Below the pieces are notes generated by a model. It was not told the origin of the DNA and ran no database searches. It was given only the letters and a program-made list of their open reading frames with translations. From the IMG/VR virus record IMGVR_UViG_2541047167_000007: a stretch of 4,257 nucleotides of DNA; one strand, 5' to 3'. The first letter of the stretch is position 1. Each line of letters begins with the position of its first letter. Both the position numbers and the translations under genes were made by a program. Shown one piece after another: positions 3,159-4,257 of this stretch. This stretch comes from a virus (lineage: Duplodnaviria; Heunggongvirae; Uroviricota; Caudoviricetes).

Positions 3159-3716
3159 ATGACCACTATTACCAAAGATCGACTGCTGACAATCCAGCAT
3201 TGGCGCGAAACATACGGACCGGGTAGCAACGTTGTGCTTCCAGCAGAAGAAGCGGAAGAGCTGGCACGGATTGCGCTGGCATCACTGGCAGCAGTATCGG
3301 ATGAACGAGCAGCCTATGAATTATTTATGGAGAAGCGTTTCGGGGAATCTGTAGATCGCCGCAGAGCAAAAAATGGCGATAGAGAATACATGGCATGGGA
3401 TATGGCGCTTGGCTGGATTATCTGGTGTCACCGCGCCGCCATGCTTCAGGCTGGAAACTTTCGGGAAAATAAGGGTTCGTCAACCAATAATTTTCGGATA
3501 ATCTCGGAAACGTCAACCAACTCTCCGGCAATCCCTGATGAGGTGTTGTCCGCAATCCTGAAGGTCGCCAGGCTTCGTGCAGATTTCGATGCTTCTGAAG
3601 TGGACAGGCGAGGTATCGGTAGTTGTCTGGATGAGGCCGAGCAAGAACTTATCGTTACCATTAACGAATACGCCAGTCAGATCGCAGTAGAAGCGACACA
3701 GGGGGAGAACCAATGA
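3159..3716 (+). CDS. Hypothetical prophage protein (185 aa)
   Basis: ATG 3159 lies 2 nt after the upstream stop, with AAGGTGA upstream. Stop is TGA 3714-3716. Coding-like composition; no family recognised. Confidence 0.6.
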   Translation: MTTITKDRLLTIQHWRETYGPGSNVVLPAEEAEELARIALASLAAVSDERAAYELFMEKRFGESVDRRRAKNGDREYMAWDMALGWIIWCHRAAMLQAGNFRENKGSSTNNFRIISETSTNSPAIPDEVLSAILKVARLRADFDASEVDRRGIGSCLDEAEQELIVTINEYASQIAVEATQGENQ

Positions 3717-3790
3717 GCCGGCCAGATGCATTTGCAGGCGTTGCTATAGCTATTGCTTTTCTAGTATATGTTATTTGTCGGTGGGGGTAA
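3713..3790 (+). CDS. Candidate small hydrophobic peptide (25 aa: MSRPDAFAGVAIAIAFLVYVICRWG)
   Basis: ATG 3713 overlaps the upstream stop (ATGA), with a GGGGGAG SD at 3701-3707. One predicted transmembrane helix. Stop is TAA 3788-3790. Absent from the ORF track, presumably for length. Confidence 0.3.
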   Translation: MSRPDAFAGVAIAIAFLVYVICRWG

Positions 3791-3825
3791 AAACGTTCGC
3801 CGGGATTCACACCAAGGGAGGGAAT

Positions 3826-3930
3826 ATGTCGGATGATATTTCACTGGTAATGGAAGGCGCTCTGGCTGTTATTGCTGTTGTGGGTGTTTACTGCCTGGTT
3901 GTGTTTTTGATGGAGCGCCTGGGGAACTGA
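3826..3930 (+). CDS. Candidate small membrane peptide (34 aa: MSDDISLVMEGALAVIAVVGVYCLVVFLMERLGN)
   Basis: ATG 3826 sits 5 nt after a strong SD AAGGGAGGG (3813-3821). Acidic N-terminus followed by a ~20-residue hydrophobic helix. Stop is TGA 3928-3930. Absent from the ORF track. Confidence 0.4.
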   Translation: MSDDISLVMEGALAVIAVVGVYCLVVFLMERLGN

Positions 3931-3940
3931 ATTCATTCCG

Positions 3941-3956
3941 TATGGGAATTCCCATA
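3941..3956. repeat. Perfect 16-bp palindrome TATGGGAATTCCCATA, centred on GAATTC
   Basis: Read directly: 3941-3956 is its own reverse complement, and the flanks CCG / TCGG extend it imperfectly. It lies 11 nt after the 34-aa ORF stop and 15 nt before the candidate hok -35. Confidence 0.9.
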
Positions 3957-3970
3957 TCGGGCAAAACGGT

Positions 3971-3998
3971 TTGCTGTAAAGCGAGAGTTAAGTAGAAT
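3971..3998 (+). promoter_or_regulatory. Candidate sigma70 promoter for the hok/mok mRNA
   Basis: -35 TTGCTG (3971-3976), 16-nt spacer, -10 TAGAAT (3993-3998); this would give a ~115-nt leader before the mok-like ATG. Pattern match only. Confidence 0.3.
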
Positions 3999-4016
3999 TG
4001 CTGCGGGTGCTTGAGG

Positions 4017-4052
4017 CTGTCTGCCTCGGGCATGCCACCGTAAGGCAGACAG
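4017..4052 (+). other. Stem-loop in the predicted hok mRNA 5' leader (10-bp stem, 16-nt loop)
   Basis: CTGTCTGCCT (4017-4026) is the exact reverse complement of AGGCAGACAG (4043-4052). No U-tract follows on either strand, so it is not a canonical terminator. Confidence 0.5.
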
Positions 4053-4128
4053 AGAAAAGCCCCAGTTAACATTACGCGTCCTGCAAGACGCTTAACATTA
4101 ATCTGAGGCCCAATCTATATGAAAGACA
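4050..4128 (-). ncRNA. sok: Predicted Sok-like antisense RNA, complementary to the mok-like translation initiation region
   Basis: A minus-strand promoter is predicted just downstream. On the minus strand GCCUCAG (4109-4103) pairs with CUGGGGC (4065-4059), including one G-U wobble, followed by UUUUCUCU (4058-4051), a terminator-like structure. The RNA would cover the mok-like SD (4105-4108) and ATG (4119). Inference by analogy to hok/sok. Confidence 0.4.
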
Positions 4129-4257
4129 AATCTAGGTTAGCCTCTTACGCGCCGAAAGGCAAGGAGAAGCAGGCTATGAAGCAGCAAAAGGCGATGTTAA
4201 TCGCCCTGATCGTCATCTGTTTAACCGTCATAGTGACGGCACTGGTAACGAGGAAAG
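4119..4257 (+). CDS. mok: Mok-like upstream reading frame, in frame with hok (19-codon N-terminal extension: MKDKSRLASYAPKGKEKQA); 3' partial
   Basis: ATG 4119 follows GAGG (4105-4108) with a 10-nt spacer; the frame runs without a stop into the hok ATG at 4176. This mirrors chromosomal mok/hok pairs, which as I recall share frame and stop codon. Confidence 0.35.
   Translation, partial: MKDKSRLASYAPKGKEKQAMKQQKAMLIALIVICLTVIVTALVTRK
4134..4162 (-). promoter_or_regulatory. Candidate promoter for the sok-like antisense RNA
   Basis: Minus strand: -35 TTGCCT (4162-4157), 17-nt spacer, -10 TAACCT (4139-4134), predicting a transcription start near 4126-4128. The -10 is weak (TANNNT only). Confidence 0.3.
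4176..4257 (+). CDS. hok: Hok/Gef-family type I toxin (RelF/HokD-like N-terminus); 3' end outside the window
   Basis: ATG 4176 follows SD AAGGAGA (4161-4167) with an 8-nt spacer. The translation MKQQKAMLIALIVICLTVIVTALVTRK matches the conserved Hok/Gef/RelF N-terminal transmembrane region from memory. The frame is open to the window end. Confidence 0.8.
   Translation, partial: MKQQKAMLIALIVICLTVIVTALVTRK

What the first reader, a model, noticed from the sequence alone, without database searches (positions are those of the whole stretch)
3713..3930. Two unannotated tiny hydrophobic ORFs (25 aa and 34 aa) with good ribosome-binding sites immediately upstream of hok
Both are missing from the ORF track, but each has a start context typical of real genes: an ATGA overlap with an upstream G-rich SD for the first, and AAGGGAGGG 5 nt from the ATG for the second. 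Each encodes a single predicted transmembrane helix. Small membrane peptides of this size in prophages are often toxins, toxin modulators, or superinfection/host-takeover factors and are routinely missed by annotation. Their position next to a type I toxin locus makes them worth testing.
Basis: seen in the sequence. Interest (0 to 1): 0.6.

Follow-up and report, generated by a model that had tools for sequence, protein, structure and literature searches.

The report
Two real prophage membrane microprotein genes
Both tiny ORFs are genuine, selection-constrained genes for single-helix membrane peptides in E. coli lambdoid prophages; one is already annotated and ribosome-profiled, the other is missed almost everywhere, and their function is still unknown.

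Summary
Both ORFs exist exactly as described: ORF1 at 3713-3790 (25 aa, ATGA overlap with the upstream gene) and ORF2 at 3826-3930 (34 aa, AAGGGAGGG 3 nt before the ATG). The window is an E. coli O157:H7 lambdoid prophage.

A diverged lineage keeps both frames, lengths, starts and stops. Synonymous changes are in excess only in the proposed frames: pN/pS is 0.30-0.41 for ORF1 and 0.22-0.31 for ORF2.

ORF2 is not unannotated. PGAP calls it (WP_001278460.1), and its Sakai paralogue ECs_5710 (XECs145) has published ribosome footprints in growing lysogens. It belongs to a 29-34 aa, Escherichia-restricted family. In all 238 evaluable loci that family lies 43-82 nt upstream of a hokD-type hok/sok leader, yet it shows no homology to Hok.

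ORF1 belongs to a separate 27-aa family found in about 30% of complete E. coli genomes and in phage 933W, essentially never annotated. It is coupled to the upstream gene, not to hok: 26 of 157 loci have a terminator after it instead.

Function is unknown. The best reading is two single-span inner-membrane microproteins. A toxin role is unlikely for ORF2, and a Hok-partner role remains open.

The parts
3159..3716 (+). Upstream 185-aa ORF. Its C-terminal end resembles DUF551/EaA-type phage proteins. Its TGA stop overlaps the ORF1 start (ATGA).
   Evidence: PGAP WP_000137954.1, hypothetical protein; phrog_14306 at 1.5e-34; phrog_660; phrog_60; neighbouring copies annotated as DUF551/EaA.
3701..3707 (+). 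Shine-Dalgarno-like GGGGGAG, 5 nt upstream of the ORF1 ATG.
   Evidence: An SD-like purine run precedes the ORF1 start in every lineage, although the upstream genes differ.
3713..3790 (+). ORF1: a 25-aa microprotein with one hydrophobic helix. It is a member of a 27-aa family with the motif M-x-W-P-[DE]-A-F...V-Y-x-I-C-R-W-G. The window copy has an in-frame 2-codon deletion and R3 in place of W3.
3785..3795 (.). First copy of the short direct repeat GGGTAAAAACG, which spans the ORF1 stop. It marks the left edge of the ORF2+palindrome segment that is absent from the phage 933W arrangement.
3814..3822 (+). Strong Shine-Dalgarno AAGGGAGGG for ORF2, 3 nt before the ATG.
   Evidence: The last 14 nt of the ORF1-ORF2 spacer are identical in the diverged lineage, while the rest of the spacer is only 48-52% identical.
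3826..3930 (+). ORF2: a 34-aa microprotein forming a single helix. It is the type A member of the hok-adjacent family with the motif A-[IV]-Y-C-L-x-V-x-L-M-[DE]-R-L. It equals PGAP WP_001278460.1 and is a paralogue of Sakai ECs_5710/XECs145.
3941..3956 (.). 16-bp perfect palindrome TATGGGAATTCCCATA. Most other copies carry a 22-bp version, CGATATGGGAATTCCCATATCG. It sits between the ORF2 stop and the hok promoter. Its function is unknown.
   Evidence: It is also present upstream of hok in loci that lack ORF2 (L293, L339).
3959..3968 (.). Second, degenerate copy of the direct repeat (GGGCAAAACG here; GGGTAAAAACG in most other copies). It marks the right edge of the ORF2+palindrome segment.
3971..3998 (+). 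Inferred hok promoter: -35 TTGCTG at 3971-3976, a 16-nt spacer, and -10 TAGAAT at 3993-3998, which ends 7 nt before the leader start.
   Evidence: Inference from the sequence and from the Rfam leader start at 4005. The consensus promoter scan did not call it.
4005..4181 (+). 5' leader of the hokD mRNA and the region complementary to Sok antisense RNA.
   Evidence: RF01794, 117.7 bits, E=2.5e-27.
4119..4257 (+). Mok-like in-frame leader ORF (ATG at 4119) and hokD (ATG at 4176; MKQQKAMLIALIVICLTVIVTALVTRK...). Both are cut off by the end of the window.

Best explanation
ORF1 and ORF2 are two genuine, independently evolved phage genes. Each encodes one hydrophobic alpha-helix of membrane-spanning length, and I infer that both insert into the inner membrane.

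ORF1 is the last, translationally coupled cistron behind a DUF551/Ea-type gene. Its start always overlaps or abuts the upstream stop. It belongs to a widespread 27-aa family that occurs both with and without hok downstream.

ORF2 is translated from its own strong Shine-Dalgarno sequence. Together with a palindrome it lies on a segment of about 175 nt that is flanked by a short direct repeat. Compared with phage 933W, this segment is an insertion between ORF1 and the hok promoter. ORF2 belongs to a 29-34 aa, Escherichia-restricted family whose members always sit directly upstream of a hokD-type hok/sok locus.

What is shown: the coding status of both ORFs, purifying selection on both, the synteny, and translation of an ORF2 paralogue in growing lysogens.

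What is inferred: both act as small inner-membrane accessory proteins that bind or modulate another membrane component, rather than as toxins. For ORF2 the most specific candidate partner is Hok or its membrane target. I put that at about 0.15-0.2, and a hok-unrelated membrane role at about 0.5. The confidence given here refers to the first part: real, selected membrane-microprotein genes with the described architecture.
For: - Close copies. Among 116 loci (31 haplotypes), ORF2 is never frameshifted. Its start changes only ATG to GTG and its stop only TGA to TAA. It has 12 synonymous and 11 non-synonymous changes, with 13 of 23 at third codon positions. ORF1 differs by an in-frame 6-nt indel.
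- Diverged lineage (L128, L135). Both ORFs keep their length, start and stop, while the spacer between them, apart from the SD, is only 48-52% identical. pN/pS for ORF1 is 0.41 and 0.30 (Fisher p=0.008 and 0.0004). For ORF2 it is 0.22 and 0.31 (p=0.0002 and 0.006). The other frames give about 1, except the antisense frame that shares third positions.
- ORF1 family. Across 57 nucleotide haplotypes, 46 of 84 changes fall at third positions (p=4e-5). It is present in 1631 of 5426 complete E. coli genomes and in 90 phage records, including 933W.
- ORF2 family. An HMM search of 1.84 billion proteins and a profile search found a 29-aa type B. pN/pS between types A and B is 0.43-0.45 (p=0.007). Within type B there are 15 synonymous and 9 non-synonymous changes.
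- Synteny. All 238 evaluable ORF2-family loci have the hok leader 43 or 75-82 nt downstream.
- Translation. XECs145 (= ECs_5710, Sakai prophage Sp6) in LB has RNA RPKM 79, footprint RPKM 346, RCV 4.35 and coverage 0.99 (PMC5597208).
- Structure. ORF2 is one helix, residues 2-33, pLDDT 91. The apolar runs are 17-19 residues long.
Against: - There is no experimental evidence for ORF1 translation, and none for membrane localisation of either peptide.
- Among the close (about 90% identical) copies alone, ORF1 shows no synonymous excess (6 S to 15 N). A few copies are damaged: a stop at codon 3 in L029, a 1-nt deletion at codon 2 in L103, and W26 changed to a stop in 9 loci.
- The antisense frame across ORF1 is open in all 57 haplotypes and shares the third-position signal.
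- The Ribo-seq data are for a paralogue, reads may multi-map among prophage copies, and the published ORF used a different upstream start.
- The loci are non-independent samples of one recombining prophage pool.
- Function is entirely inferred. No family in Pfam, PHROGs, NCBIfam or PADLOC matches.
Confidence: 0.75

Rival explanations
1. ORF2-family peptides are protein-level partners of Hok. They would be an antagonist (immunity factor), a helper or a timer of the membrane toxin, making prophage hokD loci three-component modules.
For: - All 238 ORF2-family loci carry the hok leader immediately downstream, against 26 of 157 ORF1 loci without hok (Fisher p=1e-11).
- The adjacency is kept in two different junction architectures: type B at 43 nt, and type A at 75-82 nt with a palindrome in between.
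- Both Hok and ORF2 are predicted single-helix membrane peptides.
- HokW is produced on prophage induction and aids phage release (PMC8621323), so a membrane co-factor is plausible.
Against: - Most hokD-type loci lack ORF2, including 933W, and only about a quarter of an unselected sample of 120 hok leaders have it. Hok/Sok therefore works without it.
- In type B the last ORF2 codons lie over the upstream part of the hok promoter (the -35 starts 10 nt after the stop), and 3' remnants are retained in L262-type loci. This gives a structural reason for the linkage.
- The family is young and narrowly distributed, so there has been little time for the genes to separate.
- L135 keeps ORF1 and ORF2 after loss of the hok coding sequence.
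- ORF2 is translated when Hok is not.
- There is no interaction evidence.
Confidence: 0.17
2. One or both ORFs are themselves type I-like membrane toxins, or holin/Kil-like host-killing peptides, kept silent in the lysogen.
For: Their size and hydrophobicity resemble type I toxins. They sit in a prophage next to a known type I toxin. A sigma-70-like site lies on the minus strand at 3791-3763, inside the ORF1 3' end.
Against: - The ORF2 paralogue is strongly translated in exponentially growing cells (RCV 4.35 in LB and 1.14 in BHI).
- ORF2 has an unsequestered strong SD and net charge -3.
- hhalign against a Hok alignment gives probability 1.7%, and there is no Pfam HOK_GEF hit.
- Rfam finds no RNA family apart from the hok/sok leader.
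- Promoter-like sites occur at the chance rate (2 found, 1.5 expected) and no terminator-like site is present.
- ORF1 is translationally coupled to an ordinary upstream gene.
Confidence: 0.07
3. The ORFs are not functional genes. The conservation would reflect recent common ancestry or overlapping DNA/RNA signals (hok promoter context, RBS, processing hairpin). For ORF1, the coding signal could belong to the 49-aa antisense ORF at 3661-3810 (-).
For: - Close copies are about 90% identical across coding and non-coding parts alike.
- ORF1 shows no synonymous excess among the close copies.
- The antisense frame is open in all haplotypes and shares third codon positions.
Against: - In the diverged lineage and across the families, synonymous changes dominate specifically in the sense frames.
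- The ORF1 start and stop are fixed at the same codons in at least five unrelated flanking contexts: different upstream genes, and downstream either ORF2, the hok promoter or a terminator. An antisense ORF would have to begin and end in those unrelated sequences.
- An open antisense frame is an automatic by-product of a Tyr/His/Gln-poor hydrophobic sense ORF (inference).
- The ORF2 antisense frames contain stops.
- Ribosome footprints cover the ORF2 paralogue.
Confidence: 0.05
4. The two ORFs are joined by -1 ribosomal frameshifting at the G5/A5 run at the ORF1 stop (TGGGGGTAAAAA), giving a two-helix protein of about 75 aa.
For: The ORF2 frame is open from 3749 through the spacer (51-aa ORF at 3775-3930). 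Some database proteins are exactly such fusions (P0005 and P0008).
Against: - The fusions come from assemblies with 1-nt indels in homopolymers.
- The site is not a canonical X XXY YYZ slippery heptamer (inference).
- The spacer is poorly conserved and changes length in the diverged lineage and in L075.
- ORF2 has its own conserved SD and start codon.
- Type B ORF2 and ORF1-only loci exist separately.
Confidence: 0.02

Closest known systems
ECs_5710 / XECs145 of E. coli O157:H7 Sakai prophage Sp6 (Huecker et al. 2017, PLoS One, PMC5597208); PGAP proteins WP_001278460.1, WP_001278450.1 and relatives
   Same: It is the same gene family as ORF2 and about 91% identical: 34 aa, the same SD, and the same position between an ORF1 copy and mokC/hok. 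It is annotated as a hypothetical protein and predicted to be an inner-membrane protein with one TM segment.
   Different: It is a paralogous copy in another prophage (A8 and D30 instead of V8 and E30). The paper called a longer 53-aa ORF from a non-canonical upstream start. It assigned no function and reported no KA/KS value for this ORF.
Hok/Gef family type I toxins (Pfam PF01848) with Mok and Sok
   Same: These are small single-helix membrane peptides encoded in the same prophage module. The ORF2 family is always directly upstream of a hokD-type locus.
   Different: There is no sequence or profile similarity. ORF2 lacks Hok's C-terminal periplasmic domain. No antisense RNA, mok-like leader or fold-back elements were detected. 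ORF2 lies outside the hok transcript (the leader starts at 4005) and is translated in growing cells.
Bacterial small inner-membrane regulatory proteins, for example AcrZ, MgrB, MgtS, KdpF and CydX (established knowledge; review PMC12648545 was listed but not read)
   Same: They are 25-50 aa single-helix peptides that work by binding a larger membrane protein, and annotation often misses them.
   Different: There is no homology. ORF1 and ORF2 are phage-borne, and no partner is known. This is an analogy of kind only.
Unannotated ORF1 homologue of phage 933W (NC_000924, 58832-58912 minus strand), between ST933Wp77 and sokW/mokW/hokW
   Same: It belongs to the same 27-aa family (MTWPEAFANVGTVMAVVLVVYSICRWR), has the same ATGA overlap with the upstream gene, and sits directly upstream of the hok promoter.
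   Different: The 933W locus has no ORF2 and no palindrome. The window copy carries a 2-codon deletion and has S2, R3 and D5.

Membership tests
Hok/Gef toxins (PF01848) | Significant match to the family profile, or profile-profile similarity | tested here: not met
   No Pfam hit for ORF1 or ORF2 variants, even at E<=10. hhalign of the ORF2-family alignment against a Hok alignment gives probability 1.7%.
Hok/Gef toxins (PF01848) | About 50 aa, with an N-terminal TM helix followed by a conserved periplasmic domain containing Cys | tested here: not met
   ORF1 is 25-27 aa and ORF2 29-34 aa. Each ends 3-5 residues after the helix.
Type I toxin-antitoxin toxin (generic) | Small hydrophobic peptide | tested here: met
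   GRAVY is 1.24 for ORF1 and 1.40 for ORF2, with a single apolar run of 17-19 residues.
Type I toxin-antitoxin toxin (generic) | Cis- or trans-encoded antisense RNA antitoxin with its own promoter and terminator | tested here: inconclusive
   Rfam finds only the hok/sok leader. There is one promoter-like site on the minus strand at 3791-3763, at the chance rate, and no terminator-like site. No transcript data were available.
Type I toxin-antitoxin toxin (generic) | Translation repressed during normal growth, and toxic when expressed | tested here: not met
   The ORF2 paralogue XECs145 has RCV 4.35 and footprint RPKM 346 in exponential LB culture. Toxicity could not be tested with these tools. 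There are no data for ORF1.
hok-adjacent microprotein family (ORF2 family: ECs_5710/WP_001278460 type A and the 29-aa type B) | 29-34 aa with the conserved core A-[IV]-Y-C-L-x-V-x-L-M-[DE]-R-L | tested here: met
   Alignments A3 and A5. Invariant residues are A14, V18, Y22, C23, L24 and L28. The profile search E-value for the close type A representative P0013 (91% identical to the window ORF2) is 6e-18.
hok-adjacent microprotein family (ORF2 family: ECs_5710/WP_001278460 type A and the 29-aa type B) | Located 43-82 nt upstream of a hokD-type hok/sok leader, on the same strand | tested here: met
   In the window the stop is at 3930 and the leader starts at 4005. The same holds in all 238 evaluable loci.
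ORF1 family (27-aa, 933W-type) | Motif M-x-W-P-[DE]-A-F ... V-Y-x-I-C-R-W-G followed by a stop; 27 codons | tested here: met
   The window copy keeps P4, D5, A6, F7 and VYVICRWG, but has R3 instead of W3 and an in-frame 2-codon deletion, giving 25 aa.
ORF1 family (27-aa, 933W-type) | Start codon overlaps or abuts the stop codon of the upstream gene | tested here: met
   ATGA in the window. ATGA in other type A copies, in A30 and in 933W. TAATG in L135. TAAGTG in L329.
Curated protein families (Pfam, PHROGs, NCBIfam, PADLOC) | Match above the family threshold | tested here: not met
   Only sub-threshold hits to unrelated hydrophobic segments, with E between 0.0015 and 0.74.

The most novel reading that the evidence does not exclude
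The ORF2-family microprotein is a dedicated protein partner of the Hok toxin. It could be a membrane-embedded antagonist or a timing factor. Many prophage hokD loci would then be three-component systems (toxin, RNA antitoxin, microprotein). ORF1 would represent a second, unrecognised, very widespread phage membrane microprotein.
Probability: 0.15. Interest if true: 0.7.

Novelty: new member of a known kind. Interest (0 to 1): 0.42.

Why it matters
Phage-encoded membrane microproteins are under-annotated, and several known ones control host membrane proteins, exclusion or lysis.

Two such families are defined here. ORF1 is present in about 30% of complete E. coli genomes and in the reference Stx phage 933W, and is essentially never annotated. 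The ORF2 family has two types: type A in about 12% of genomes and type B in about 35%, and type B was not annotated by PGAP in any sampled copy.

The one-way, invariant synteny of the ORF2 family with hokD gives a concrete, cheap hypothesis to test on how Hok activity is tuned in prophages, where HokW is reported to aid phage release (PMC8621323). If no link to Hok exists, the result is still a useful annotation correction for EHEC prophages.

Tried and rejected
I used the 51-aa upstream-extended ORF and later a profile.
- Two degenerate-pattern scans of 185,579 species-representative genomes for type A ORF2 found nothing.
- Pfam, PHROGs, NCBIfam and PADLOC gave no family for either peptide.
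- 'ORF2 is a truncated Hok paralogue' was rejected: hhalign probability 1.7%.
- 'ORF1 belongs to the hok module' was rejected: 26 of 157 loci have a terminator after ORF1 instead of hok.
- The antisense 49-aa ORF across ORF1 was considered and rejected. Its ends would lie in unrelated flanks, and its open frame follows from the sense composition.
- The ORF1-ORF2 frameshift fusion was considered and rejected.
- I looked for a lysogenic promoter or transcription start site. The consensus scan found nothing on the + strand, and the supplements of the EDL933 TSS paper contain none of the query strings.
- Peptide strings were absent from the searchable literature and from the supplements of the Enterobacteriaceae microproteome preprint. 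ORF1 and type B strings were absent from the Huecker supplements; two of those files were cut when stored.
- The two hok papers, searched by keyword, returned no passage on upstream microproteins.
- The metagenome scan, the second structure job and fold searches were not used, because they could not add to a single-helix peptide.
Full report
**1. Observation**

ORF1 runs from 3713 to 3790 and encodes MSRPDAFAGVAIAIAFLVYVICRWG. Its ATG overlaps the TGA of the 185-aa ORF at 3159-3716 (ATGA), and GGGGGAG lies 5 nt upstream. ORF2 runs from 3826 to 3930 and encodes MSDDISLVMEGALAVIAVVGVYCLVVFLMERLGN.

Rfam places the hok/sok leader at 4005-4181 (RF01794, 117.7 bits), and hokD starts at 4176. Both ORFs therefore lie outside, and upstream of, the hok transcript and its inferred promoter (-10 TAGAAT at 3993-3998). 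ORFs of this size are common: 17 ORFs of at least 20 aa overlap 3400-4257. The question had to be settled by comparison with related sequences.

**2. Source and annotation status**

The region is 100% identical to many E. coli O157:H7 chromosomes. It lies in a lambdoid prophage between replication-type genes and a DUF968-RusA-Q block. About 677 of 5426 complete E. coli genomes carry this type of region, with a median of 2-3 copies each.

PGAP annotates ORF2 as a 34-aa hypothetical protein in every copy I opened (WP_001278460.1, WP_001278450.1, WP_001278454.1, WP_001278459.1, WP_077779993.1). In Sakai prophage Sp6 the paralogue is ECs_5710. ORF1 is not annotated in any of these RefSeq records. 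Only a few GenBank submitters called it (for example ETJ68712.1 and ASL59204.1).

**3. Close copies**

I compared 116 loci, which collapse to 31 haplotypes about 88-100% identical to the window.

- ORF2 is never frameshifted. Seven loci have GTG instead of ATG, one has TAA instead of TGA, and four have a stop two codons early.
- Substitutions in ORF2 are 12 synonymous and 11 non-synonymous, with 13 of 23 at third codon positions (binomial p=0.019).
- ORF1 differs between the two main haplotype groups by an in-frame 6-nt indel.
- At this shallow depth ORF1 shows no synonymous excess (6 S to 15 N). A few copies are damaged: a stop at codon 3 in L029, a 1-nt deletion at codon 2 in L103, and W26 changed to a stop in nine loci.
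- In strain A30 and in L075 the homology with the window begins a few bases before the ORF1 start, behind an unrelated upstream gene. That is what a gene boundary looks like in mosaic phages.

**4. A diverged lineage settles the coding status**

Two contigs, L128 (human gut metagenome) and L135 (IMG/VR), carry the whole module at much greater distance. ORF1 is 65% identical at the nucleotide level and ORF2 79-80%. The spacer between them, apart from the SD, is only 48-52% identical.

Both ORFs keep their exact lengths (27 and 34 codons), their starts and their stops. ORF1 still begins on the stop of the upstream gene (ATGA in L128, TAATG in L135).

Nei-Gojobori counts against the common haplotype are:

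| ORF | pN/pS (vs L128, vs L135) | One-sided Fisher p |
|---|---|---|
| ORF1 | 0.41, 0.30 | 0.008, 0.0004 |
| ORF2 | 0.22, 0.31 | 0.0002, 0.006 |

The other two sense frames and two of the three antisense frames give ratios near or above 1 and contain stops. The one exception is the antisense frame that shares third codon positions with the sense frame, which mirrors the signal as expected.

For ORF2 that antisense frame has stops. For ORF1 it is open (the 49-aa ORF at 3661-3810 on the minus strand). That ORF would have to start and end in flanks that are unrelated between lineages. An open frame there also follows automatically from a sense peptide poor in Tyr, His and Gln. I reject it.

**5. 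Two separate families**

*ORF2 family.* An exhaustive HMM search of 1.84 billion representative proteins found distant relatives of about 29-30 aa. A profile search then recovered 136 clusters, all named as Escherichia or 'Enterobacteriaceae'.

- The family has a 34-aa type A (MSDDISLxMEGALAV...) and a 29-aa type B ((V/M)LVLKCALAIAAVMAIYCLAVVLMDRLSD, with a GTG start).
- Both share the core A-[IV]-Y-C-L-x-V-x-L-M-[DE]-R-L.
- pN/pS between types A and B is 0.43-0.45 (p=0.007). Within type B there are 15 synonymous and 9 non-synonymous changes.
- Type B DNA is in 1915 of 5426 complete E. coli genomes, and no annotated feature lay under the match in any of the 12 listed records.
- No species-representative genome of GTDB matches the type A pattern.

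*ORF1 family.* This is a distinct 27-aa family (consensus MTWPEAFTTVGIAMAVALVVYSICRWG).

- It has 57 nucleotide haplotypes, with 46 of 84 changes at third positions (p=4e-5).
- It is in 1631 of 5426 genomes, with up to 7 copies per genome.
- It is in 90 phage records, including 933W, VT2-Sakai, Min27 and BP-4795.
- In 933W it sits unannotated between ST933Wp77 and sokW/mokW/hokW.

Neither family matches Pfam, PHROGs, NCBIfam or PADLOC.

**6. Relation to hok**

*ORF2 family.* Every evaluable locus (121 of type A and 117 of type B) has the hok leader at a fixed distance downstream: 75-82 nt for type A and 43 nt for type B.

The converse does not hold. In a sample of 120 hokD-type leaders picked without regard to what lies upstream, only about a quarter carry the family. 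The others have one of the following:
- ORF1 alone, as in 933W, with its stop 41 nt before the leader;
- a 3' remnant of type B;
- other genes, often ending in hydrophobic C-termini;
- unrelated sequence.

*ORF1 family.* Here 26 of 157 evaluable loci have an intrinsic terminator after the stop instead of hok. ORF1 therefore travels with its upstream DUF551/Ea-type gene, not with hok. The contrast of 0 of 238 against 26 of 157 gives p=1e-11, but the loci are not independent samples.

*Architecture.* Alignment with 933W shows that the type A arrangement differs by a segment of about 175 nt (spacer, ORF2 and a palindrome). The segment is bounded by the direct repeat GGGTAAAAACG.

In type B the hok -35 begins 10 nt after the ORF2 stop. 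Part of the linkage may therefore be structural. That does not apply to type A, where a 22-bp palindrome lies in between. One locus (L135) keeps ORF1 and ORF2 although the hok coding sequence has been replaced. One rearranged remnant (L132) has a degenerate ORF2 without ORF1.

**7. Expression**

Huecker et al. 2017 (PMC5597208) list XECs145, which contains the ORF2 paralogue of prophage Sp6, among the translated novel small genes of Sakai.

| Condition | RNA RPKM | Footprint RPKM | RCV | Coverage |
|---|---|---|---|---|
| LB | 79.1 | 346.1 | 4.35 | 0.99 |
| BHI | 121.3 | 150.1 | 1.14 | 0.84 |
| BHI stress | 73.3 | 1.1 | 0.01 | 0.37 |

The paper predicts an inner-membrane protein with one TM segment and reports no KA/KS value for this ORF.

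Three caveats apply. This is a paralogue, reads may multi-map among prophage copies, and the authors chose a longer ORF from a non-canonical start. ORF1 is shorter than any ORF listed in the parts of their table I read (shortest seen 93 nt), and no data for it were found. I found no start-site or TSS data.

**8. Physical nature**

ORF2 is modelled as one uninterrupted helix, residues 2-33, with mean pLDDT 91. Its apolar run is 19 residues. The N-tail is acidic (D3, D4, E10) and a single Arg follows the helix. By the positive-inside rule this suggests an N-out/C-in orientation (inference).

ORF1 has an apolar run of 17 residues (19 in the 27-aa form), flanked by R3/D5 and R23.

**9. What it is not**

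A profile-profile comparison of the ORF2 family with Hok proteins gives probability 1.7%. There is no HOK_GEF hit.

Several points speak against ORF2 being a silenced type I toxin:
- no conserved antisense promoter or terminator was found;
- the SD is exposed and strong;
- the net charge is -3;
- the paralogue is heavily translated in healthy cultures.

**10. Most likely mechanism**

*Shown:* two selected coding genes, their architecture, their synteny, and translation of an ORF2 paralogue.

*Inferred:* both peptides insert as single-span inner-membrane helices and act by binding another membrane component, as known bacterial microproteins do. ORF1 is made by translational coupling as the last cistron of its operon segment. 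ORF2 is made from its own SD and is expressed in lysogens.

My estimates for the function of ORF2 are:
- a hok-unrelated membrane accessory role, such as host-protein modulation or exclusion: about 0.5;
- a Hok partner or modulator: about 0.15-0.2;
- itself a toxin: about 0.07;
- no function: about 0.05.

**11. Novelty and value**

ORF2 as a gene is already in the databases, and its translation has been published. Four things appear to be new, since I found no mention of them in the searchable literature:
- the family definition, with types A and B;
- the evidence of purifying selection;
- the invariant hok synteny;
- the existence and breadth of the unannotated ORF1 family, including in 933W.

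This is a new member, or pair of members, of a known kind: phage membrane microproteins. It is not a new kind of system.

**12. Limits**

All loci come from one recombining pool of Escherichia prophages. Pattern-based retrieval fixes some codons; I give counts outside the fixed codons where relevant. No experiment here addresses function.

Noticed in passing
window 3938-3959 (core 3941-3956); also L004, L293, L339: A palindrome (22 bp, CGATATGGGAATTCCCATATCG, perfect in most copies; a 16-bp core in this window) sits between the ORF2 stop and the hok -35. It also occurs upstream of hok in loci without ORF2. No T-run follows it, so it is not a classic terminator. It could be a protein-binding site or an RNA-processing hairpin.
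   Followed up: partly
window 3785-3795 and 3959-3968; L423 (933W) 1575-1600: The spacer, ORF2 and palindrome (about 175 nt) are bounded by the direct repeat GGGTAAAAACG. Phage 933W lacks exactly this segment, and there ORF1 runs straight into the hok promoter. It looks like a small insertion or deletion cassette.
   Followed up: partly
L423 1501-1584 (phage 933W NC_000924, 58832-58912 minus strand): The reference Stx2 phage 933W has an unannotated 27-aa ORF1 homologue (MTWPEAFANVGTVMAVVLVVYSICRWR). It overlaps the stop of ST933Wp77 by ATGA and lies directly upstream of sokW/mokW/hokW.
   Followed up: yes
L424 1497-1589 (phage Tritos); L137 100-190; 1915 of 5426 E. coli genomes: The 29-aa type B relative of ORF2 (GTG start, ...AIYCLAVVLMDRLSD) is present in about 35% of complete E. 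coli genomes, with no annotated feature under the match in the 12 listed records. The hok -35 (TTGGCG) begins 10 nt after its stop.
   Followed up: partly
L262, L265, L267, L270, L271 and similar loci (cluster of 11): Some hok loci keep only the last 8 or so codons of a type B ORF2 (...MDHLSD, then TGA) fused to unrelated upstream sequence. This suggests that recombination preserves the region just upstream of the hok promoter.
   Followed up: no
L135 7600-7700 (minus strand): In this diverged copy the hok leader breaks off after about 105 nt and is followed by a gene whose product begins MKELNKFRVIDLFCGAGGLSYGF, which looks like a C5 cytosine methyltransferase (inference). ORF1 and ORF2 are intact without a Hok coding sequence.
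   Followed up: no
L258-type loci (24 loci) and L286/L261-type loci: Other hokD loci are preceded by different genes that end in hydrophobic C-termini. One type ends ...VFMAVMCIEYWR 89 nt before the leader. Another ends ...FTLPGDFYRKKARH, with its stop overlapping the hok promoter. Whether membrane-protein genes are enriched upstream of hok was not tested.
   Followed up: no
window 3781-3795; proteins P0005, P0008: The ORF1 stop lies in a G5-T-A5 run. Some public assemblies carry 1-nt indels there and so predict ORF1-ORF2 fusion proteins. These are probably sequencing or assembly errors.
   Followed up: partly
window 3791-3763 (minus strand): A sigma-70-like site (TTTACC, 17 nt, TATACT) points antisense into ORF1. 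Such sites occur at the chance rate in this region (2 found, 1.5 expected), and no terminator follows it.
   Followed up: partly
L132 2900-3110: In a rearranged prophage remnant, homology to the window begins about 25 nt upstream of the ORF2 ATG. An IS630-type transposase gene and a substrate-binding-protein gene lie further upstream. This copy of ORF2 carries disruptive changes (GGD inside the helix, and RQVN at the end), consistent with decay.
   Followed up: no
ORF1-family hits on plasmids (163 places); P7 upf89.5: ORF1-family DNA and the adjacent DUF551-type 3' end also occur on plasmids, and the DUF551-type 3' end matches phage P7 (upf89.5). The small gene is therefore not confined to lambdoid prophages.
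   Followed up: no
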